DNA from: an archaeon | GTDB lineage: Archaea > Iainarchaeota > Iainarchaeia > Iainarchaeales > JAAZKV01 | Direction: 5' to 3' | DNA length: 64,000 nt | NCBI GenBank assembly: GCA_041661245.1 | Contig: JBAZUY010000001.1 | Location: 64,491-128,490 of the forward strand | Notes under the pieces: generated by a model | Told to the model about the DNA's origin: nothing | What the model saw: only the letters and a program-made list of their open reading frames with translations | Databases searched by the model: none | Position numbers and translations under genes: made by a program | In this document: positions 35,842-45,595 of the stretch, one piece after another | How the letters are laid out: every line of letters starts with the position of its first letter | How positions within the stretch are numbered: the stretch's first letter is position 1

Positions 35842-36507
35842 TCAAGCTGTATTAACTAATTCTTCAAGGAGTTTTAAGTTCACTTCTGAAAAGTCTTTAA
35901 TTATCAAATCAGCAGTTCCCTCAAAATCTTTTGGAGCAGTAAGCTCTGTTAAGAGGGCGATAGATTTCATTTCCGCGCGGTTTGCTGCTTCAATTCCATT
36001 TTTTGCATCCTCAAACACAACACACTCACTTGGTTTTGCACCCACTAACTCTGCCGCTTTAAGAAATAAATCAGGATTGGGTTTATGTAAAGCAACATCC
36101 TCAGCAGTAACTAAAGCATCCAAATATTTGCTAACTTTTATTAAATCAAGAATTCTTTTTGCTCGCTCTTTAGTACTAGACGTCGCAACTGCAATCTTCA
36201 CTCCTTTTTGTTTAGCGCAAGAAATTAAAGAGGTAATAGTTTTATTGGGACGCAATTCATTCTCCATAAGAGAGAGCTCAATTTTAAATGACTTTTTTGA
36301 AAACTCAAGAGGGTCAATTTTTGGCAAACTAAACTCTTTTTCCCACTCTTTAAGCTGGTCACGAAGAGACATACCAACAGATTTTTTTCTCTGCTCAGGA
36401 GTTAAAACAACCCCATATTCTTTTAGAAGCACTCCAAAAGATTTGGTAATAAATGGCGGGGAGTTGACAAGCACCCCATCCATATCAAAAATAATCGCTT
36501 TAAGCAT
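35842..36507 (-). CDS. HAD-superfamily hydrolase (beta-phosphoglucomutase-like subfamily IA)
   Basis: MLKAIIFDMDGVLV, ATSS, FEDAKNGIEAA. Confidence 0.75.
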   Translation of the reverse strand: MLKAIIFDMDGVLVNSPPFITKSFGVLLKEYGVVLTPEQRKKSVGMSLRDQLKEWEKEFSLPKIDPLEFSKKSFKIELSLMENELRPNKTITSLISCAKQKGVKIAVATSSTKERAKRILDLIKVSKYLDALVTAEDVALHKPNPDLFLKAAELVGAKPSECVVFEDAKNGIEAANRAEMKSIALLTELTAPKDFEGTADLIIKDFSEVNLKLLEELVNTA

Positions 36508-38048: not shown

Positions 38049-38279
38049 TTAATCAGAATCAAAATCTTCTTCATCACTGCCGGAAGATGCTTCTTCTTCC
38101 TCTTCTTCCATTTCGAATTCTTTACTTTCAATAAGTTTCAAAGCGCCCTTTTTGTCGGCAATTACAGTGTACTCTAGGTTACATTCAGAGCAAGCAACTG
38201 CATCTCCTTCTTCAAGGTCATCAATATTAACCTCAAATCTTGCCTTACATTCAGTGCATAATTTCTTCATTGAAGCCAT
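38049..38279 (-). CDS. LysW/ArgW-like zinc-ribbon protein with extended acidic C-terminal tail (76 aa from ATG 38279)
   Basis: MASMKKLCTECKARFEVNIDDLEEGDAVACSECNLEYTVI has the LysW layout: CxxC, then E.GD.V.CxxC, then an E-x-x-V beta strand. The tail is EFEMEEEEEEASSGSDEEDFDSD. The upstream part of the 102-aa track ORF overlaps the TATA box and is probably not coding. Confidence 0.6.
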   Translation of the reverse strand: MASMKKLCTECKARFEVNIDDLEEGDAVACSECNLEYTVIADKKGALKLIESKEFEMEEEEEEASSGSDEEDFDSD

Positions 38280-38417: not shown

Positions 38418-38975
38418 CTAAAGAAGAGAAAGGATTATCCCTAAGGTTAAACCATAGAGAATAGTAAGAATAATCCAATTCAAAGCTAACTTTGATCCAG
38501 TTACTCCAAGTACGACTTTAAGCAGTTTATATGATCCTACAAGCCAAGCCACTGTTAGAATTATTGAGAATAATATGAATAAAACTCCTAAAAACATTAA
38601 GAGCCCAGAACTAACCATTGGACCAAAAAGAGCTGTAAGAGCGAAAACCAAAGCCCCAACTAAATTAATCGCCCATAGCTTTCCAACAACTGACAAACAT
38701 TGAGCATAACTTATTCCAATTAAGCGCTTTTTCTTTCTAACATGAACAAATTCAAAAAACCAAACAAATCCTGAAAAAAGCAACCATTCTGCAAAATTCA
38801 ATAATACAAAGTATATGCTCGTGTAAATATTTGCTGAAATAAAGAAAGAGGCAAGAGCCATTAATATTCCGGAAATCAAAACAATTCCAAACGCCCCCTT
38901 AATATCCTCGTTATGGAAAGCATCCTCAAAAGCTTTTGTTGGACTGAATAAAACACTAGCACACATATTTATCAC
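38418..38975 (-). CDS. Polytopic membrane protein (Yip1-domain-like, tentative)
   Basis: N-terminal LFSPTKAFEDAF, then five TM helices. Confidence 0.4.
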   Translation of the reverse strand: MINMCASVLFSPTKAFEDAFHNEDIKGAFGIVLISGILMALASFFISANIYTSIYFVLLNFAEWLLFSGFVWFFEFVHVRKKKRLIGISYAQCLSVVGKLWAINLVGALVFALTALFGPMVSSGLLMFLGVLFILFSIILTVAWLVGSYKLLKVVLGVTGSKLALNWIILTILYGLTLGIILSLL

Positions 38976-39035: not shown

Positions 39036-39575
39036 TCATAATTCTTTTTTCATTAAACAGTTATCAACATATTTTTCATTAATTAGAGCTGCTTTTTTCA
39101 ATAACCCGTATTTTGAAAATCCAAGTTTTTTATAAAGCAAAATTGCAGGTTTATTTTTTGAATCAACTGCCAAAAGAACAAGTGTTTTGGACCCAGGTAA
39201 ATTCTTCAAAGTGAATTCCATTAAACCAATTCCAATACGATGACGACGATGAGAAGACTCAACAACAAGCGAAGAAATTTCAGCCCTGTGCTTATGTAAA
39301 CCTTTGCCGAAAACTACTTTGACATGCGCAACAATTCTTCCATTTTCTAGTGCAACAAATCGCTTATCAATTCCCTTAATAGTAGCACTTAATTTTTTTT
39401 GAACAGAAGATTTTTTCCAGTGCGGAAACAGAGCATGCACCTCGGAAATAGTGTTCAAATTTAATTCAGAGAGTTCTCCAAATATAATTCCGTCAAGCGA
39501 AGCTTTTGGGGAATTAATTTCATTTTTGGCACCCGCCAAAGGAAGATTATGCCCCAAAGCCATAATTTTAATCAA
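39036..39575 (-). CDS. GNAT-family N-acetyltransferase
   Basis: ISSLVVESSHRRHRIGIGLMEF (motif A) and LLYKKLGFSKYG. Its start overlaps the stop of the upstream protease gene by 4 nt. Confidence 0.7.
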   Translation of the reverse strand: MIKIMALGHNLPLAGAKNEINSPKASLDGIIFGELSELNLNTISEVHALFPHWKKSSVQKKLSATIKGIDKRFVALENGRIVAHVKVVFGKGLHKHRAEISSLVVESSHRRHRIGIGLMEFTLKNLPGSKTLVLLAVDSKNKPAILLYKKLGFSKYGLLKKAALINEKYVDNCLMKKEL

Positions 39576-40018
39576 CTCCTTTGTTTCTTTGCCAAATCAC
39601 TCTTTAGTTGGAGTCTTACTCGTTCGTTAGCATCTTTTGAGTCCCCAACTTTATTACTAGTATGAGTTTTTGAAACATCAATCAAAAAATTATTGTGAAT
39701 AATATCTCTTCCAATTAAAACTGAATAAGGCAAACCTTCTCTATCTTCAATATTTACTCCAGTTTTAATTTTCTTACCTTTAACAATAATAATTGCTTCA
39801 GCAATTGCTCTTCTTGTATAACCCCGAGGAGAAGAAGCACTCTTTATTTTAACACTTGAAATAATTGGTCCAACCCCTGCTTTAGCAGCGGTACGAACAT
39901 CAATACAAGTTCTTGTAGCACCAGTATCAAAAAGAGCTTTTTTTATTATAACTCCTTTCTTCCCCTTTATTCGAACCAAATCAACTAAACCAATTATTTT
40001 TTTTCCTTTGCTCATCAA
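39572..40018 (-). CDS. DUF785 / RimB-like retropepsin-fold protease (family historically named ATP-dependent zinc protease)
   Basis: ALFDTGATRTCID (DTGA), SASSPRGYTRRAI and EDREGLPYSVLIGRDIIHNNFLIDVS match the family usually encoded next to rimK. Confidence 0.7.
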   Translation of the reverse strand: MMSKGKKIIGLVDLVRIKGKKGVIIKKALFDTGATRTCIDVRTAAKAGVGPIISSVKIKSASSPRGYTRRAIAEAIIIVKGKKIKTGVNIEDREGLPYSVLIGRDIIHNNFLIDVSKTHTSNKVGDSKDANERVRLQLKSDLAKKQRS

Positions 40019-40130: not shown

Positions 40131-41048
40131 ATGGACATACTAATACTCGCGGAGAAAAAGAAAAATGCTGAAATGTTCGTGAGCGCAATTAAGGCAAAAG
40201 GCCATAATGCAACCTATATTCGCTTGTCCAAAATAATATTAGTCAGCAAACAAAATGAGAGCTTAATAAAATCTAAGGGAGAGGAATTAGCCCCCTATGA
40301 TGCAGTATTTATCCAAGCAAGAACTACCCTTGCCCCATTCATAGAGCCATTACTTGACCAATTAGAATCAGAAGGCTGCTACACCACTTCTAAAAAAGGC
40401 TCGTATTATATTGGAATGAACGAACCATACCAATTTGTAACCCTTTCTGTTGCAAAAGCACCAATACCAAAATCAATTACTTCAGGAAATGCAAAAAACA
40501 TTGAACACTTGTCAAAAAAACTAACTTACCCGTTACTTGCAAAATCCTTTATTGGAAGAACTGTCCAACAAGCAATCGTAGTAAACAACGCAAGAGCGCT
40601 AAATAGTTACATTAAAAGTATAAAAACAGAGATTGACGGATTCATGTTACGCCAATTCTCCAAAGCAGACATCATTTCGAGTGTAATGATTGGAAAAAAA
40701 ATATTCTCGGTGAAAAGAAAATTTACTGACGGAATAACTGCTGAAATTAGCGAAGGAAAAATTTACAAAGTAAGTGAGAGTGAAACAAAAACCATTTTCT
40801 CAGCAGCAAAAGCCTGCGGGTATGATATTGCAAGAGTAGATTTGTGTAAAGGAAAAATTGTGAAAGTTGATCCAATAATACCTTGGACGGATTTTAATAA
40901 GATTTGCTCAGAAAGAATTGAAGATTATGTGGCGGATTTTTTAATTGAACAAGCTATCCAAAATGAAGGAAAAAGAAAAGTTAAATATGATTTCCTAGGA
41001 TTAAGAAAAATATTTGGAAAAACTATTCTTGGGTGGTTATTCAAATGA
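40131..41048 (+). CDS. RimK-like ATP-grasp paralog with degenerate nucleotide-binding motifs
   Basis: Same length and layout as the next gene. However, the glycine-rich loop reads YPLLAKSFIGRTVQQAIVV, the RxN..GG block is missing, and only ARVDL and KVDP remain. Confidence 0.55.
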   Translation: MDILILAEKKKNAEMFVSAIKAKGHNATYIRLSKIILVSKQNESLIKSKGEELAPYDAVFIQARTTLAPFIEPLLDQLESEGCYTTSKKGSYYIGMNEPYQFVTLSVAKAPIPKSITSGNAKNIEHLSKKLTYPLLAKSFIGRTVQQAIVVNNARALNSYIKSIKTEIDGFMLRQFSKADIISSVMIGKKIFSVKRKFTDGITAEISEGKIYKVSESETKTIFSAAKACGYDIARVDLCKGKIVKVDPIIPWTDFNKICSERIEDYVADFLIEQAIQNEGKRKVKYDFLGLRKIFGKTILGWLFK

Positions 41049-41974
41049 CTCCCACAAAAATAATTTTCCCAGAACACACTCAAATACAAAAAGAAAATAA
41101 GAGTCTTTTAATAATCGGGTCAAAAACTTACAAACAATCAACCGTAAACATGCTTCTTGAAGAAGCAAAAAAGAAATTTTCAAATGTAATGTTTGTCCCA
41201 ATCGACAAAATACAAATACTTTCAGTTGAAGGAAAAACTGAACTCATTTACAAGGACAAAAACCTTCTTGAATTTGATGCAATTTACCCAAGACTTTCTT
41301 CAAGAGACTTTTTACTAGGAGAAGCGGTACTGAAAACAATTGAGAATAGCAAAGCATACTGCCCAGTAAATCTATCTGCATACCAAATATCAAATCATAA
41401 ATTTTATACCTCAAAAAAATTATCAAATCAAGGAATACCTGGGATTACAAGTACTTTATTTATTTCCCCAAAATATGCAGATTATGCCGTGGACGAAACA
41501 GGGTATCCTTTTGTAATGAAATTAATCTCAGGATTTGCAGGAAAAGGAGTTGTATTAATTAACTCTAAAGAACAAATGGAAAGCATACTTGAAGCAGTAC
41601 ACCTCTTTGAAGAATTTATTTCAACCCAAAAATTCATTAAGGGAAAAGACTCGGATGTACGATGCTATGTTATTGGAGATTATGTAATTGCAGTAAAAAG
41701 AAAATGTAAAAAAGGAGATTGGAGAGCAAACATTTCAAGAGGAGGAAGTGCAAGTCTAATTAATCCAACTCCCGAAATGCTAAATATTGCAAAAACAAGT
41801 GCAAAAGCACTTGGAATGGATTTGTGCTCAGTAGATTTAATGGAATACAAGAAAAAATGGGTAGTAATAGAAGTAAACTTTATGCCAGGACCTTTTAGAA
41901 AATTCCTCGGAAGCATGATTGCACAACAATGGATAAGATTTTTGTTTGAAAAATCAGGTAAGAACCAAAAATAA
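41045..41974 (+). CDS. RimK/LysX-family ATP-grasp ligase (canonical motifs)
   Basis: YPFVMKLISGFAGKGVVLI, DVRCYVIGDYVIA, WRANISRGGSA, CSVDLME...VIEVNFMPG. ATG 41045 overlaps the upstream TGA (ATGA). Confidence 0.8.
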   Translation: MTPTKIIFPEHTQIQKENKSLLIIGSKTYKQSTVNMLLEEAKKKFSNVMFVPIDKIQILSVEGKTELIYKDKNLLEFDAIYPRLSSRDFLLGEAVLKTIENSKAYCPVNLSAYQISNHKFYTSKKLSNQGIPGITSTLFISPKYADYAVDETGYPFVMKLISGFAGKGVVLINSKEQMESILEAVHLFEEFISTQKFIKGKDSDVRCYVIGDYVIAVKRKCKKGDWRANISRGGSASLINPTPEMLNIAKTSAKALGMDLCSVDLMEYKKKWVVIEVNFMPGPFRKFLGSMIAQQWIRFLFEKSGKNQK

Positions 41975-42036: not shown

Positions 42037-43173
42037 ATGCGATTTTTCAATTACACCCTTATTGATCAAAAAATCTGCCAACTAGCCGGCGCTATTGAAA
42101 CTAATCTACTAACTTACATTAACCCTCAAAATCTTGGAGAACAAAAGAAAAAATTCTTTGAATCCTTAAACAAAAATGAACAATATAACCCAGTTTTTAC
42201 TTACGCGTCAAGAAATCCACTTTATACATATTTTGACATGAATCCCAATTTTAAAATATACCAAAATGAATTAAAGGAATTAATTAAAGACCTCGGGGAA
42301 GACTCATTAGGAATAATATTTGAAAAAAAAATAATTGATCTTTTTGAGAGAATGGAACTAGTACGAAGCGTAGGAACCGAAAACTTTGCAGGAAACTCCG
42401 AATCCTATTATGGCACTGTGGACCCCCAAACATTAAGAAGAGCTAAAGAGTTATTGTCAAAAGAAATTGTTCTTGAGGAGAAAAAAATTCACTTTGATGA
42501 AGCGAAAAAAGTAATTGAAGCATTTTTGAAAAAGAAAAAACTCAATTACAAAGTAAAACAACGAGAAACTGAAAACGGAGCAAAATTTTCAGTAAATATA
42601 AGAACAAAAGAAATCTTCATTAACAAGGATGTGTTCTTTTCTGAAAATACACTCCGAAGACTTATTGCTCACGAAATAGAAGGACACGTTTACCGATATG
42701 AAAATGGACTCCTGCAGCCATATGGAATATTTTCAAGAGGATTATCAAAAGAAACACTTGAAACGGAAGAAGGCCTTGCAGTTTATATTGAACAACAACA
42801 AAAAATTAATATTGATGCCCAACTCAAAGAATATGCTGGAAGAGTCATGGCTATTACTACCGCATCAAAGAAAAGTTTCTTTGAAACATTTGAAGAAATG
42901 AACAAATACTTTTCACAAGAAGACTCCTTCACACTCGCGCTCCGAGCAAAAAGAGGAACATGGAAACAAGATGTTGGAAGTGCTTTTACAAAAGATGCAC
43001 TTTACTTAAAAGGGCTGCTATTGGTTGAAGACTTTTTGAAAGACCAAAAAGTTGAAACCCTTTACCACGGAAGATATTCCATAAACGACACCCCATTGGC
43101 TTTGGATATTGCGGGACTTGTAAAACCAGCACATCTGCCAGAGTGCTTAAAGAAAGAGAGCGCGAGAACATGA
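42037..43173 (+). CDS. DUF1704 / MATCAP-like metallocarboxypeptidase (QEGLA-motif family)
   Basis: IAHEIEGHV (HExxxH) followed by ETEEGLAVYIE (EGLA motif); length about 378 aa. Confidence 0.65.
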   Translation: MRFFNYTLIDQKICQLAGAIETNLLTYINPQNLGEQKKKFFESLNKNEQYNPVFTYASRNPLYTYFDMNPNFKIYQNELKELIKDLGEDSLGIIFEKKIIDLFERMELVRSVGTENFAGNSESYYGTVDPQTLRRAKELLSKEIVLEEKKIHFDEAKKVIEAFLKKKKLNYKVKQRETENGAKFSVNIRTKEIFINKDVFFSENTLRRLIAHEIEGHVYRYENGLLQPYGIFSRGLSKETLETEEGLAVYIEQQQKINIDAQLKEYAGRVMAITTASKKSFFETFEEMNKYFSQEDSFTLALRAKRGTWKQDVGSAFTKDALYLKGLLLVEDFLKDQKVETLYHGRYSINDTPLALDIAGLVKPAHLPECLKKESART

Positions 43174-44240
43174 TTTCAATAGATGATTCAACGAAAATCA
43201 AAAACATTAAACCACTTACTCTTCAAGCCCTACAAAAAGTGTTTGACCTCTATGAGATTACCCCGAAAAGCAATGTGCTTTTGTGGAGCAATACAAGCAA
43301 AAATAAGGTTTCTGAAAAACTAGCAAAAACATTTCTCCAAAGACTCAATCAACTCGGGTGCACCACATCTGTAATAATTGAAAAAGAAAAAACAAAACTG
43401 GGCCCAGCATCAAAAAAAACCCAAAAATGTATTCTTTCATTGACCCAGGGGGATATCTTTATTTCAATAGGCGCAGGAAATAGGGGATACGTGGAACAGA
43501 ATGGAAAACATGTTTTAATGAGAAAACTCATGAAAAAACAAGGGTTTAGGATGGTTTCTCTTGGAGGACTGGATTCAATAAAACTGCATAGAATAAATTC
43601 ATTTTTTGAAAGTTTTAATCATAATCAAAAAGAAATTAACTCCCTCAATAAAAAAATCAAAAATCTTTTAGAAAAAACAAAAACAATCAAAATTACTTGC
43701 CCAAAAGGAAGTAACTTAACAATGGAACTTAATAAAAACCCCGTGATTTCAAACGATGGAAACTGGAAAAAATACTCCACAAACTACCCAATAGGCGAAG
43801 TATACACCGCACCGAAAGAAGATTCCTGCAATGGAATTGCATTTGTTTCAAGCGCAAAGGTTTCTGGAAAAACTATTCTGCCCAAAAAACCAATAAAATT
43901 TATTTTTGAAAAAGGCTTACTTAAATCCACAAATAGCAAAGAAATTAACTCAAATCTAAAATATGTGGAGAAATTCAATAAAAAAAATAATATATTAAAT
44001 TGGAAAACCGCACCCCGAACAATTGCTGAGTTTGCTATTGGAACAAATAGAAAAGCAAGTATTGTGGGCGCAATGATTTGTGATGAAAAAACTCTGGGCA
44101 CTTGCCACTTTGCCATAGGAAACAATAAACACCTTGGAGGAAAAACTTACTGCCACGGACACTTTGATAACGTAATAAAAAATCCCACAATATGGTTTGA
44201 TGGAAAAAAAATAATGACAAATGGAAAACTTTTATTTTGA
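43170..44240 (+). CDS. M29-family (AmpS/PepS-like) aminopeptidase
   Basis: YPIGEVYTAP, EFAIGTN, CDEKTLGTCHFAIGNN, HGHFD. ATG 43170 overlaps the upstream TGA (ATGA). Confidence 0.7.
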   Translation: MISIDDSTKIKNIKPLTLQALQKVFDLYEITPKSNVLLWSNTSKNKVSEKLAKTFLQRLNQLGCTTSVIIEKEKTKLGPASKKTQKCILSLTQGDIFISIGAGNRGYVEQNGKHVLMRKLMKKQGFRMVSLGGLDSIKLHRINSFFESFNHNQKEINSLNKKIKNLLEKTKTIKITCPKGSNLTMELNKNPVISNDGNWKKYSTNYPIGEVYTAPKEDSCNGIAFVSSAKVSGKTILPKKPIKFIFEKGLLKSTNSKEINSNLKYVEKFNKKNNILNWKTAPRTIAEFAIGTNRKASIVGAMICDEKTLGTCHFAIGNNKHLGGKTYCHGHFDNVIKNPTIWFDGKKIMTNGKLLF

Positions 44241-44254
44241 ATACAACAACAAAA

Positions 44255-44905
44255 CTAATCCAATAAATATTTTATGTTTTCATAAGTTGTCTCTTTAGGA
44301 GTAAGTACTAAATCTGCTTGGGAATAATCTTGTTCAAAAAAAACATTTGTTTTGATAATTAGGCATTTCATTCCCGCAGCTTTTGCGGCAGTTAAACCCA
44401 AAACTGAATCCTCCAGCACAAGACAATGTTTTGGATTAACTTTAAGTAGTTCAGCAGCTTTCAAGTAAGGATCGGGATTTGGTTTATGTTTCACTGTATC
44501 CTCAAGTCCGACTATTTCATCAAAATAATTTCTTATTCCAAAATCTTCAAGAATTTTAGTTGTAACCTCTCTTTTTGTTGAAGTCGCAATCCCTAACTTA
44601 TATCCCTTTTCTTTCAAAACCTTTGCTAACTCCACTACTTCTCTTACAAGACAATTCTTTGATAAAAGTGAATAATAAAATTCTCTTTGGATTTTTCTAT
44701 ATTCTTCCCAATCCACTGGATACTTTGAGAGTAAAAATTCTTTATAATGATCTGGAGATCTAGCATATATTTGCTTAAAATCAGTTTCATCAAAGTTAAA
44801 TCCAACTTTTTTTAAACCTTGTTTTATGGATTCTTTGTGAATCATCTCAGAGTCAATTAAAACTCCATCTCGATCAAAAATAATAGCTTTAATCATAAAA
44901 GTCAC
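44255..44905 (-). CDS. HAD-superfamily hydrolase (subfamily IA)
   Basis: IKAIIFDRDGVLIDSE, ATST, LEDSVLGLTAAKAAGM. Confidence 0.75.
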   Translation of the reverse strand: MTFMIKAIIFDRDGVLIDSEMIHKESIKQGLKKVGFNFDETDFKQIYARSPDHYKEFLLSKYPVDWEEYRKIQREFYYSLLSKNCLVREVVELAKVLKEKGYKLGIATSTKREVTTKILEDFGIRNYFDEIVGLEDTVKHKPNPDPYLKAAELLKVNPKHCLVLEDSVLGLTAAKAAGMKCLIIKTNVFFEQDYSQADLVLTPKETTYENIKYLLD

Positions 44906-45178: not shown

Positions 45179-45595
45179 TTACTTAAATTCCAAAATATCC
45201 CTATATTTTACTAACGGAGTATCTTTTGATTTAATAAAAATTGACCCCTCTTCATTAGCCAAAAGCTCTTCAACAGAATTTGAACCCACTTTCAAATCCA
45301 TAATCGTTAATTCTTTCCCATTTAGTTTAGCCTTCATTTTTTTCTTTAATTTACCGCACTCAACAAACCCCAAAACCATTGTAAGAGTCCCAGTATCATA
45401 GACCCCCGAAACTTTGAATCTATTAAATTGTTTTGCTTTTTGTAAAAACACTTCTCCGGAAGTTTCTCTATCCTTCGCACCATTTTTTACATGATTAGGA
45501 ATTAGAACTGAAGAATCCTCTGCCCCGCCAAGAATCATATCCTCTTCGGATTGAACAGAATCATTCTTTTTCTTTAAAAAATCAAACAAACCCAT
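45179..45595 (-). CDS. Hypothetical protein (C-terminal half resembles a translation-factor domain-2-type beta barrel)
   Basis: 138-aa ORF; the GFVECGKLKKKMKAKLNGKELTIMDLKV pattern is only a weak resemblance. Confidence 0.4.
   Translation of the reverse strand: MGLFDFLKKKNDSVQSEEDMILGGAEDSSVLIPNHVKNGAKDRETSGEVFLQKAKQFNRFKVSGVYDTGTLTMVLGFVECGKLKKKMKAKLNGKELTIMDLKVGSNSVEELLANEEGSIFIKSKDTPLVKYRDILEFK

What the first reader, a model, noticed from the sequence alone, without database searches (positions are those of the whole stretch)
42037..44240. MATCAP/DUF1704-like carboxypeptidase translationally coupled to an M29 aminopeptidase
SEEN: HEIEGHV plus ETEEGLA (the HExxxH and EGLA signatures of the DUF1704 family) in the first ORF. 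IGEVYTAP, GTCHFAIGNN and HGHFD in the second. The start and stop overlap as ATGA. ESTABLISHED: the eukaryotic member MATCAP detyrosinates tubulin tails; prokaryotic members are uncharacterised. INFERENCE: paired C- and N-terminal exopeptidases could fully degrade a homopolymeric peptide or reset a tailed protein. An archaeal member beside RimK-type ligases would give functional context to the whole family.
Basis: partly seen in the sequence, partly recalled or inferred. Interest (0 to 1): 0.6.

Follow-up and report, generated by a model that had tools for sequence, protein, structure and literature searches.

The report
Archaeal RimK operon ending in MATCAP and M29 peptidases
A tiny DPANN archaeon encodes a relative of the human tubulin-tail-trimming enzyme MATCAP, joined to a second peptidase, at the end of an operon for an amino-acid-adding RimK ligase, so the set probably builds and trims acidic peptide tails, though the molecule it acts on is unknown.

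Summary
ORF1 (42037-43173) is a MATCAP/DUF1704 zinc carboxypeptidase: Pfam E 1e-44, HExxxH plus Glu invariant, and the model's best fold match is human MATCAP. ORF2 (43170-44240) is a compact peptidase of the M29/NicX clan that keeps all five M29 metal ligands. The ATGA overlap is real.

The two genes end a four-gene operon: a degenerate RimK copy, an intact RimK-family ligase, MATCAP, then M29. This operon diverges from a RimB-like retropepsin and a GNAT gene. The block recurs in about 30 Iainarchaeota genomes.

The M29 gene is not a fixed partner. Its slot holds M29 in 14 clusters, a second MATCAP paralog in 8 and nothing in 5, and never both. Some clusters carry a third ATP-grasp gene.

Across the phylum, 47 of 49 MATCAP-bearing genomes also have RimK. 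However, the two genes are adjacent only in this family, and most other archaeal MATCAPs sit among housekeeping genes.

Best reading: an "add and trim" module like Pseudomonas RimK/RimB, in an organism that lacks ribosomal protein bS6, with M29 as an exchangeable clean-up exopeptidase. The substrate and the chemistry are untested. I rate it a new variant of a known kind, of moderate interest.

The parts
42037..43173 (+). MATCAP/DUF1704-family zinc metallocarboxypeptidase (MATCAP1 clade), 378 aa
   Evidence: PF08014 scores 153 bits, E 1.4e-44. H212, E213, H217, E245, R303, K305, R306, K319, D320 and Y323 are invariant in 22 homologues. The AF2 model has pLDDT 90.4. Its best Foldseek hits are human MATCAP 7z5g/7z6s, TM 0.57/0.64.
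43170..44240 (+). Compact M29/NicX-clan two-metal peptidase, 356 aa; start overlaps the MATCAP stop (ATGA)
   Evidence: PF02073 scores 41.2 bits. A profile search hits AmpS 1zjc at 3.7e-13, NicX 7cn3 at 4.6e-13, PepS and AmpT. E210, E287, H313, H331 and D333 are invariant. The model has pLDDT 92.8. Foldseek finds only NicX (TM 0.60) and PepS (0.54).
41045..41974 (+). RimKb: intact RimK-family ATP-grasp ligase; ATG 41045 overlaps the RimKa stop (ATGA)
   Evidence: PF08443 scores 103.7 bits and TIGR00768 153.5 bits, above its 143.4 cut-off. E. coli RimK 5zct/4iwx match at E 7e-34. All ATP-grasp motifs are conserved. The junction is shown.
40131..41048 (+). RimKa: degenerate RimK-like pseudo-ligase; first gene of the + operon
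   Evidence: Only the RimK pre-ATP-grasp domain matches (PF18030, 30.9 bits). The match to 7qys is E 0.029 but co-linear. It lacks the glycine loop, the WRAN.S.GG block and the E-x-N metal site that all RimKb orthologues keep.
39572..40015 (-). RimB-like retropepsin-type aspartic peptidase, divergently transcribed
   Evidence: PF05618 scores 30.7 bits, and NCBIfam gives weak RloA3/RloA hits. FDTGATR is invariant in 17 orthologues. The N-terminus shows no signal peptide.
39036..39575 (-). GNAT acetyltransferase; start overlaps the retropepsin stop by 4 nt
   Evidence: PF00583 scores 46.7 bits, with a weak rimI-like hit. It is present in most clusters of the family.
38418..38975 (-). Conserved 185-aa hydrophobic protein of unknown family; membership of the module uncertain
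   Evidence: No Pfam hit. It is syntenic in the family. It is also paired with the Zn-ribbon gene in a genome without RimK (G034).
38049..38270 (-). 73-aa Zn-ribbon protein with a long acidic tail ending DFDSD; a candidate substrate only
   Evidence: The C-terminus is conserved as (D/E)YDSD. It ties for the most acidic C-terminus among 1,367 ORFs. Its similarity to LysW (22.7 bits) and to CSL/Dph3 is below threshold. It is also present in genomes lacking RimK.

Best explanation
The two ORFs are the last genes of a four-gene operon: rimKa (pseudo-ligase), rimKb (RimK-family ligase), MATCAP, then an M29-like gene. The operon is transcribed divergently from a RimB-like retropepsin and a GNAT gene. 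I read the whole as a cytoplasmic "add and trim" module for acidic C-terminal peptide tails, working in four steps.

1. RimKb, probably held or targeted by the catalytically dead RimKa, uses ATP to add glutamate-type residues to a free alpha-carboxyl end. This is inferred from family membership.
2. The retropepsin cuts inside such acidic runs, as RimB does. This is inferred by homology.
3. The MATCAP enzyme removes residues one at a time from the C-terminus, as its eukaryotic relatives do on tubulin tails, including deglutamylation. This is inferred from family, intact catalytic residues and fold.
4. The M29-like enzyme is an accessory exopeptidase that breaks the released or free oligopeptides down to amino acids from the other end. 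In sister genomes a second MATCAP paralog fills this job, and in some nothing does. This is inferred from the exchangeable gene slot.

The ATGA overlaps tie expression of RimKa to RimKb and of MATCAP to M29. Family assignments, gene order, conservation and co-occurrence are shown here. The chemistry and the substrate are not. The target cannot be ribosomal protein bS6, which the genome lacks. The nearby acidic-tailed Zn-ribbon protein is only one candidate.
For: - Families and active sites are established.
- The operon has ATGA overlaps at 41045-41048 and 43170-43173, and only a 62-nt gap between RimKb and MATCAP.
- The cluster is conserved in 20 relatives and in 30 species-level genomes down to about 50% MATCAP identity.
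- The RimK-linked MATCAP1 sequences form one clade with 100/100 support.
- In the phylum, 47 of 49 MATCAP-bearing genomes have RimK, against 40 of 166 without MATCAP (odds ratio 74). In family f22 both genes are present though unlinked.
- The RimKa-RimKb pair is the constant core across the order, and the peptidases beside it change. They are retropepsin plus MATCAP here, and an MscS-TM/C39-like peptidase plus an M20 peptidase elsewhere. This fits a ligase-plus-eraser logic.
- Slot-type M29 and the second MATCAP are mutually exclusive and are interleaved on the MATCAP1 tree.
- RimB and RloA cleave poly-Glu tails (PMC11957051). The MATCAP/TMCP enzymes deglutamylate tubulin (PMC10499314).
- A bacterial QEGLA gene sits between an N-formylglutamate amidohydrolase gene and a glutathione-synthetase-like ATP-grasp gene.
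Against:
- The amino acid added by RimKb is not known. It scores below the S6-Glu ligase equivalog cut-off (125.9 against 331).
- Most archaeal MATCAP homologues outside this family are not next to RimK. MATCAP can therefore work without an adjacent ligase.
- All genomes showing adjacency belong to one family (plus G030), so part of the conservation is shared ancestry.
- The M29-like protein lacks the Tyr that aligns with AmpS Tyr355 and is as close to the non-peptidase NicX as to AmpS.
- Distant M29/NicX-like genes sit in ordinary peptidase contexts.
- The candidate substrate, the Zn-ribbon protein, also occurs in genomes without RimK.
Confidence: 0.55

Rival explanations
1. The module makes and recycles a free small peptide or polymer, such as oligo- or poly-alpha-glutamate, possibly N-acetylated by the GNAT, for use as a storage compound, osmolyte or cofactor tail. 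It would not modify a protein. MATCAP and M29 would digest the peptide from its C- and N-terminal ends, and the retropepsin would cut it internally.
For: - RimK-family enzymes include small-molecule ligases. RimKb gives sub-threshold hits to MptN, CofF and LysX.
- RimKb and the GNAT both give weak hits to the N-acetylglutaminylglutamine synthetase model TIGR03103.
- An N-terminal plus a C-terminal exopeptidase suit a free peptide.
- No dedicated protein substrate co-varies with the ligase.
- Other families pair the ligase with a membrane MscS/C39-like protein and an M20 peptidase.
Against: - The characterised relatives of two of the peptidases (RimB, MATCAP/TMCP) act on protein tails.
- An N-acetylated peptide would resist an aminopeptidase.
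- A pseudo-ligase partner suggests targeting to a macromolecule.
- Nothing in the cluster exports or stores a polymer.
Confidence: 0.27
2. MATCAP and the M29-like enzyme are general peptide-scavenging exopeptidases of a host-dependent archaeon. On this reading their position after rimKab is inherited gene order without a functional link.
For: - Stand-alone MATCAPs in other archaea sit among housekeeping genes such as PTH2, RsmB and GMP synthase.
- Distant M29/NicX-like genes lie next to an M24 peptidase or unrelated genes.
- G000 has a second, distant M29-like paralog elsewhere.
- All adjacency comes from one family (plus G030).
Against: - The genes are tightly coupled: ATGA overlaps and a 62-nt gap.
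- The linkage survives to about 50% protein identity while flanking genes vary.
- MATCAP is found almost only in RimK-bearing genomes, even where the two genes are unlinked.
- RimK pairs elsewhere carry other peptidases.
- A bacterial QEGLA gene lies next to an ATP-grasp gene.
Confidence: 0.12
3. The module is a LysW-type amino-group carrier system. The Zn-ribbon protein would be a carrier whose acidic C-terminus receives an amino acid from the RimK/LysX-like ligase, and MATCAP (or M29, or the M20 peptidase in other families) would release the product, as LysK does.
For: - The Zn-ribbon protein gives its best Pfam hit to the LysW globular domain (22.7 bits) and has an acidic tail.
- RimKb hits the LysX model weakly and LysX/ArgX structures.
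- M20 peptidases accompany the ligase pair in other families.
Against: - The LysW hit is below the 27-bit cut-off.
- A profile of the Zn-ribbon family hits Dph3/Kti11 (E 1.3e-3) better than LysW (E 0.88).
- The tail ends in DYDSD, not the EDWGE motif I recall for LysW.
- I saw no LysZ/Y/J-type modifying enzymes in the cluster.
- The Zn-ribbon gene persists in genomes without RimK.
Confidence: 0.06

Closest known systems
Pseudomonas RimK/RimB(/RimA) ribosomal protein S6 glutamylation system
   Same: Both have a RimK-family ATP-grasp ligase next to a cytoplasmic retropepsin-like peptidase with a DTG site. The logic is the same: a ligase adds an acidic tail and a peptidase removes it.
   Different: - The organism is an archaeon without bS6.
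- The ligase comes with a dead paralog.
- Two further exopeptidases (MATCAP, then M29 or a second MATCAP) and a GNAT are added.
- I saw no RimA-type EAL protein in the cluster.
- RimKb does not reach the S6-Glu ligase equivalog score.
Eukaryotic MATCAP1/MATCAP2 (TMCP1/TMCP2, KIAA0895L/KIAA0895) working against TTL/TTLL ligases on tubulin tails
   Same: The protein belongs to the same Pfam family and has the same fold, the same HExxxH plus Glu zinc site and the conserved RAKRG/KD..Y blocks. It is likewise paired with ATP-grasp amino-acid ligases.
   Different: - Identity to human MATCAP is only about 19%.
- I saw no counterpart of the microtubule-binding extensions.
- The ligase is RimK-type rather than TTL-type, although a third ATP-grasp in some clusters gives weak TTL hits.
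- The substrate is unknown.
Bacterial 'flavohemoglobin expression-modulating QEGLA motif protein' (TIGR02421)
   Same: It shares the PF08014 core. In an Aminobacter plasmid the gene lies between an N-formylglutamate amidohydrolase gene and a glutathione-synthetase-like ATP-grasp gene.
   Different: - The bacterial proteins are about 620-660 aa with a long N-terminal extension.
- The window protein scores 159 bits against the 338.65 cut-off.
- The Vibrio example has no ATP-grasp neighbour.
M29 aminopeptidases (AmpS 1zjc, PepS 4icq, AmpT 2ayi) and the M29-fold dioxygenase NicX (7cn3)
   Same: It has the same two-domain fold. Three Glu/Glu/His ligands align with AmpS E253/E319/H348, and the His-x-Asp aligns with NicX H318/D320.
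   Different: - It is about 55 residues shorter than the classical M29 enzymes, which is NicX-sized.
- The AmpS Tyr355 position is Lys in the window protein.
- Unlike NicX it keeps the carboxylate and His ligands: NicX has Phe, His265, Leu and Ser302 at the corresponding places.
- A newer Pfam release files it under PF26233 'NicX' as well as PF02073.
Pseudomonas aeruginosa RloABC system
   Same: Both pair a retropepsin that cleaves poly-Glu with a RimK-like ATP-grasp gene.
   Different: - Rlo peptidases are secreted, and the system has a 7TM-transglutaminase protein.
- Here the peptidases have no signal peptide, and I found no transglutaminase.

Membership tests
MATCAP / DUF1704 (PF08014) | Profile match above Pfam's gathering score over most of the domain | tested here: met
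   153 bits against a cut-off of 27; residues 40-373 match profile positions 3-349 of 365.
MATCAP / DUF1704 (PF08014) | Gluzincin zinc site: HExxxH plus a downstream Glu in the (Q/T)EEGLA motif | tested here: met
   H212, E213, H217 and E245 are invariant in 22 homologues, including the second paralog. They align with the human MATCAP HEIGTH and TEEGLA motifs.
MATCAP / DUF1704 (PF08014) | MATCAP fold | tested here: met
   The model has pLDDT 90.4. Its top five Foldseek hits are human MATCAP chains (E 6e-10, TM 0.57/0.64). The next hits, DUF885 and M32 carboxypeptidases, are at E > 3e-3.
MATCAP / DUF1704 (PF08014) | Carboxypeptidase activity on acidic C-terminal tails | not testable with these tools
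   Needs an enzyme assay.
TIGR02421 QEGLA equivalog (bacterial) | Score above the curated cut-off | tested here: not met
   159 bits against 338.65. The bacterial members seen are 620-660 aa.
Peptidase M29 (PF02073) | Profile match above the gathering score | tested here: met
   41.2 bits against 27, but only residues 155-318 match. A profile of 27 homologues hits AmpS, PepS and AmpT at 3.7e-13 to 1.1e-7.
Peptidase M29 (PF02073) | Five metal ligands (AmpS E253, E319, H348, H381, D383; numbering from my memory of the AmpS structure paper) | tested here: met
   E210, E287, H313, H331 and D333 are invariant. The first three align with the AmpS residues. The last two align with NicX H318/D320.
Peptidase M29 (PF02073) | Active-site Tyr (AmpS Tyr355; recalled from memory) | tested here: not met
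   The aligned position is K320 in the window protein and is variable in the subfamily.
Peptidase M29 (PF02073) | Aminopeptidase activity | not testable with these tools
   Needs an enzyme assay.
NicX-type 2,5-dihydroxypyridine dioxygenase | Fe(II) ligands His265, Ser302, His318, Asp320 | tested here: not met
   His265 aligns with E287 and Ser302 with A315. Only the His-x-Asp is shared. The fold match is TM 0.60.
RimK family (TIGR00768 / PF08443), for the neighbour RimKb | Score above the subfamily cut-off, with intact ATP-grasp motifs | tested here: met
   153.5 bits against 143.4. E. coli RimK matches at E 7e-34. The motifs are conserved in 19 orthologues.
S6--L-glutamate ligase (NF007764 equivalog) | Equivalog score, and presence of the target protein bS6 | tested here: not met
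   125.9 bits against 331. PF01250 is absent from the genome while it is found in all 10 bacterial control genomes.
RimB-type retropepsin (PF05618), for the neighbour | Family match and DTG catalytic motif | tested here: met
   30.7 bits against 27. FDTGATR is invariant.
LysW amino-group carrier protein (PF21344), for the Zn-ribbon neighbour | Family score, and the C-terminal EDWGE-type acceptor motif (motif recalled from memory) | tested here: not met
   22.7 bits against 27. A profile search hits LysW 3wwl at E 0.88 and Dph3/Kti11 at 1.3e-3. The tail ends in DYDSD.

The most novel reading that the evidence does not exclude
These archaea may run a true protein "tail code". On this reading a RimK/pseudo-RimK pair, plus a TTL-like third ligase in some lineages, writes acidic C-terminal tails on one or more proteins, perhaps the acidic-tailed Zn-ribbon protein or a ribosomal protein. 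MATCAP enzymes, a retropepsin and an exchangeable exopeptidase would erase the tails. MATCAP-family carboxypeptidases would then have arisen in prokaryotes as erasers for ATP-grasp tail ligases, and the eukaryotic tubulin tyrosination/glutamylation cycle would descend from, or parallel, such a module.
Probability: 0.2. Interest if true: 0.8.

Novelty: new variant of a known kind. Interest (0 to 1): 0.52.

Why it matters
Prokaryotic MATCAP/DUF1704 proteins have no tested function. The library holds no paper that mentions MATCAP together with RimK. The one paper that mentions MATCAP together with archaea is a general review of microtubule-associated proteins, which I did not open.

This locus places a MATCAP enzyme in one operon with an intact RimK ligase, in an organism that lacks the only known RimK protein target. 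That gives a compact set of genes to express and assay. It also gives a natural experiment: M29 against a second MATCAP in the same slot.

If the add-and-trim reading is right, reversible C-terminal tailing extends to archaea. It would also suggest where the eukaryotic tubulin-tail erasers came from. If it is wrong, the pair is simply a set of peptide-scavenging enzymes of a reduced-genome symbiont.

Tried and rejected
1. ORF2 as a NicX-type dioxygenase. NicX is its best single-sequence PDB hit and best fold hit. I rejected this because the NicX iron ligands His265 and Ser302 are replaced, while all M29 metal ligands are kept.

2. RimK-MATCAP adjacency as a general property of archaeal MATCAPs. 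Only 2-3 of 50 distant loci show it, and their neighbours have no common theme.

3. The Zn-ribbon protein as a dedicated, co-inherited substrate or LysW orthologue. I did not reject it as a substrate, but its presence does not depend on RimK. It scores below the LysW threshold and resembles Dph3/Kti11 more.

4. bS6 as the target. It is absent.

6. Prior literature.
- Iyer et al. 2009 on amidoligases (PMC3268129) is not held.
- Searches for DUF1704, QEGLA, TIGR02421 and MATCAP plus RimK turned up nothing on a prokaryotic function. MATCAP plus archaea returned one general review of microtubule-associated proteins, which I did not open.

7. One literature search was too broad and gave nothing useful.
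Full report
**Observation.**
The ORF at 42037-43173 (+) encodes 378 aa containing AHEIEGHV (residues 211-218) and ETEEGLA (242-248). The next ORF, from ATG 43170 to 44240, encodes 356 aa containing IGEVYTAP, GTCHFAIGNN and HGHFD. The DNA reads gagaacATGAttt, so the start codon at 43170-43172 overlaps the stop codon at 43171-43173. Orthologues start at the same Met.

Profile searches give strong support:
- PF08014 MATCAP scores 153 bits, E 1.4e-44.
- PF02073 Peptidase_M29 scores 41.2 bits, E 1.3e-10, over residues 155-318 only.
- NCBIfam gives TIGR02421 "QEGLA" at 159 bits, below its 338.65 equivalog cut-off.

**The MATCAP-like protein.**
Single-sequence search of the PDB finds only human MATCAP (7z5g, E 1.9e-6), aligned across HEIGTH, TEEGLA and RAKRG. 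In 22 homologues from 33 to 100% identity, these residues are invariant: H212, E213, H217, E245, G246, R303, K305, R306, K319, D320 and Y323. An AlphaFold2 model has mean pLDDT 90.4. Its five best Foldseek hits are human MATCAP chains (E 6e-10, TM 0.57/0.64). DUF885 and M32 carboxypeptidases come far behind. The protein is therefore a MATCAP-family gluzincin with an intact catalytic site. Public records already name its orthologues "DUF1704 domain-containing" or [quoted passage not shown], from Candidatus Diapherotrites/Iainarchaeum archaea.

**The M29-like protein.**
Its best single-sequence PDB hit is not a peptidase. It is the M29-fold dioxygenase NicX (7cn3, E 2.8e-4). A profile of 27 homologues hits AmpS (3.7e-13), NicX (4.6e-13), PepS and AmpT.

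The metal-site alignment favours a peptidase:
- E210, E287, H313, H331 and D333 are invariant.
- The first three align with the AmpS ligands in TEEVFTAP, LGEVAL and CHLAIG.
- NicX has Phe, His265 and Leu at those places, and its Ser302 aligns with Ala.

The site is thus the two-metal peptidase type, not the NicX iron site. The Tyr that I recall as catalytic in AmpS (Tyr355) aligns with Lys. The model has pLDDT 92.8 and matches only NicX (TM 0.60) and PepS (TM 0.54) in the PDB. A newer Pfam release places the subfamily in both PF26233 "NicX" and PF02073. The close subfamily comprises about 35 clusters, essentially all from Iainarchaeota. "M29-clan hydrolase" is safe. "Aminopeptidase" is an inference.

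**Context in the window.**
Upstream on the same strand lie two RimK-like genes.
- RimKb (41045-41974) is a clear RimK-family ligase: PF08443 103.7 bits, TIGR00768 153.5 against 143.4, E. coli RimK E 7e-34.
- RimKa (40131-41048) matches only the pre-ATP-grasp domain. It lacks the glycine loop, the WRAN.S.GG block and the E-x-N metal site that all 19 RimKb orthologues keep. It is a pseudo-ligase.
- RimKa and RimKb also overlap by ATGA.
- RimKb and MATCAP are 62 nt apart.

Divergently transcribed from a 112-nt A/T-rich spacer are four more genes:
- a retropepsin with an invariant DTG (PF05618);
- a GNAT gene whose start overlaps the retropepsin stop;
- a hydrophobic 185-aa protein;
- a 73-aa Zn-ribbon protein with a long acidic tail.

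None of the peptidases has a signal peptide.

**Conservation.**
The whole block recurs in 20 relatives and in 30 species-level genomes, down to about 50% MATCAP identity. Its order is CysRS, Zn-ribbon, membrane protein, GNAT, retropepsin, then on the other strand RimKa, RimKb, MATCAP. The RimK-linked MATCAPs form one clade with 100/100 support.

The gene after MATCAP varies. It is M29 in 14 clusters, a second MATCAP paralog at about 35% identity in 8, and nothing in 5. No cluster has both.
- The second paralog is monophyletic and sister to stand-alone Iainarchaeal MATCAPs.
- The slot state changes at least four times on the MATCAP1 tree. For example, the window (M29) is sister to a genome with MATCAP2.
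- Slot-type M29 orthologues occur only in that slot and are missing from MATCAP2 genomes.
- The ATGA junction is shared by M29-type and MATCAP2-type clusters.
- In five clusters a third, divergent ATP-grasp gene sits between MATCAP and M29. It gives RimK and GSH-synthetase hits and weak TTL hits.

**Wider distribution.**
In 215 genomes of the phylum, PF08014 occurs in 49 and RimK (E <= 1e-15) in 87.
- 47 of the 49 MATCAP genomes have RimK, against 40 of the 166 without MATCAP. The odds ratio is 74 and p is 1e-20, not corrected for phylogeny.
- Close adjacency (under 600 nt) is confined to the window's family plus one other genome. In family f22 both genes are present but unlinked.
- The RimKa-RimKb pair is the constant core across the order. 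In other families it is flanked by an MscS-TM/C39-like peptidase, a third RimK-like gene and an M20 peptidase instead of MATCAP.
- Outside the phylum, only 2-3 of 50 MATCAP loci from Woesearchaeota, Nanoarchaeota and Methanosarcinales have RimK within 8 kb. Their neighbours are housekeeping genes such as PTH2 and RsmB.
- Among bacterial plasmids, an Aminobacter QEGLA gene lies between an N-formylglutamate amidohydrolase gene and a glutathione-synthetase-like ATP-grasp gene. A Vibrio one has no such neighbour.

**Substrate.**
The genome has no bS6, so the known RimK target is excluded.

The Zn-ribbon protein is one candidate, with evidence on both sides.
- For: it ties for the most acidic C-terminus among 1,367 ORFs, and its end (D/E)YDSD is conserved.
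- Against: homologues exist in genomes without RimK, where they still sit beside CysRS or the membrane protein. The adjacency may therefore be inherited gene order.
- Its LysW similarity is below threshold (22.7 against 27 bits).
- A family profile hits Dph3/Kti11 CSL zinc fingers (E 1.3e-3) better than LysW (E 0.88).

Other acidic-tailed proteins include a uL15-like ribosomal protein and a membrane protein ending in KDEEEEY. The target remains open.

**Mechanism.**
Published work shows that RimB and RloA retropepsins cleave poly-Glu tails added by RimK (PMC11957051). It also shows that MATCAP/TMCP enzymes remove C-terminal Tyr and Glu from tubulin tails and deglutamylate them (PMC10499314).

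The best-supported reading combines this with the operon structure, the phyletic co-occurrence and the interchangeable peptidases. It is an add-and-trim module with these roles:
- RimKb, with RimKa as a non-catalytic partner, extends a C-terminus with Glu-type residues.
- The retropepsin cuts within the tail.
- MATCAP trims the tail residue by residue.
- The M29-like enzyme (or MATCAP2) disposes of the released oligopeptides.

Confidence is about 0.55. The main rival is synthesis and recycling of a free oligo-Glu-type peptide (about 0.27). Then come unrelated scavenging peptidases (about 0.12) and a LysW-type carrier system (about 0.06).

**Novelty and limits.**
No held paper links MATCAP or DUF1704 to RimK. 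The only held paper that mentions MATCAP together with archaea is a general review, which I did not open. The eukaryote paper surveyed only eukaryotes. The key comparative paper on amidoligases was not available.

Earlier unchecked notes of this scan describe similar RimK-MATCAP clusters in DPANN and CPR genomes. They agree with my reading but are not independent evidence.

All function is inferred from sequence, structure models and gene context.

I rate this a new variant of the RimK/RimB kind, of moderate interest. The specific "MATCAP plus M29" pairing is a lineage-variable feature, not a defining one.

Noticed in passing
window 38049-38270 (-): The acidic-tailed Zn-ribbon protein resembles the eukaryotic Dph3/Kti11 CSL zinc finger (profile against PDB, E 1.3e-3; [26 protein letters not shown] against CKARFEVNIDDLEEGDAVACSECNL) more than LysW (E 0.88). 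It is conserved across the order, also in genomes without RimK. It may be an archaeal Dph3-like protein.
   Followed up: partly
L052 9128-10063; L058 9138-10124 (also L051, L053, L062): In one subclade a third, apparently intact ATP-grasp gene of about 320 aa sits between MATCAP and M29. It gives RimK and glutathione-synthetase hits and weak TTL hits. In L052 its start overlaps the MATCAP stop by ATGA.
   Followed up: partly
L122 13367-17001; L126 1828-5643: In other Iainarchaeal families the RimKa-RimKb pair is flanked by a membrane protein with MscS-like helices and a C39/phytochelatin-synthase-like peptidase domain, a third RimK-like gene and an M20 peptidase. There is no MATCAP.
   Followed up: partly
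genome C3:101348-101851 (-) and C2:185465-186118 (+), outside the window: A uL15-like ribosomal protein carries an acidic C-terminal extension (...EDDEDLEFESADEEDKE). A membrane protein ends in ...KDEEEEY, like an alpha-tubulin tail. Both are possible tail-enzyme substrates. Neither was examined further.
   Followed up: no
The set is syntenic in several relatives (L013, L017, L022) and lies downstream of the conserved unknown gene at 45179-45595.
   Followed up: no
window 35842-36507 (-) and 44255-44905 (-): Two HAD-superfamily hydrolase-like genes bracket the CysRS-to-M29 block. Only the second was run through Pfam (HAD_2, 124 bits). The first was judged from its translation.
   Followed up: no
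L134 138-1846: A distant M29/NicX-like gene in a metagenome contig overlaps by 4 nt with a downstream M24 peptidase gene. This is another coupled pair of exopeptidases, without RimK or MATCAP.
   Followed up: no
L079, L081, L091, L096, L099, L101, L110, L112: In eight loci of stand-alone MATCAP genes (labelled Woesearchaeota, Nanoarchaeota or Methanosarcinales) a peptidyl-tRNA hydrolase PTH2 gene lies beside MATCAP. In six it follows directly on the same strand.
   Followed up: no
L060 (same MAG as L057): One MAG carries a second MATCAP1-clade gene on another contig with no RimK within 7.8 kb. This could be a strain mixture in the bin or a real duplicated copy.
   Followed up: no
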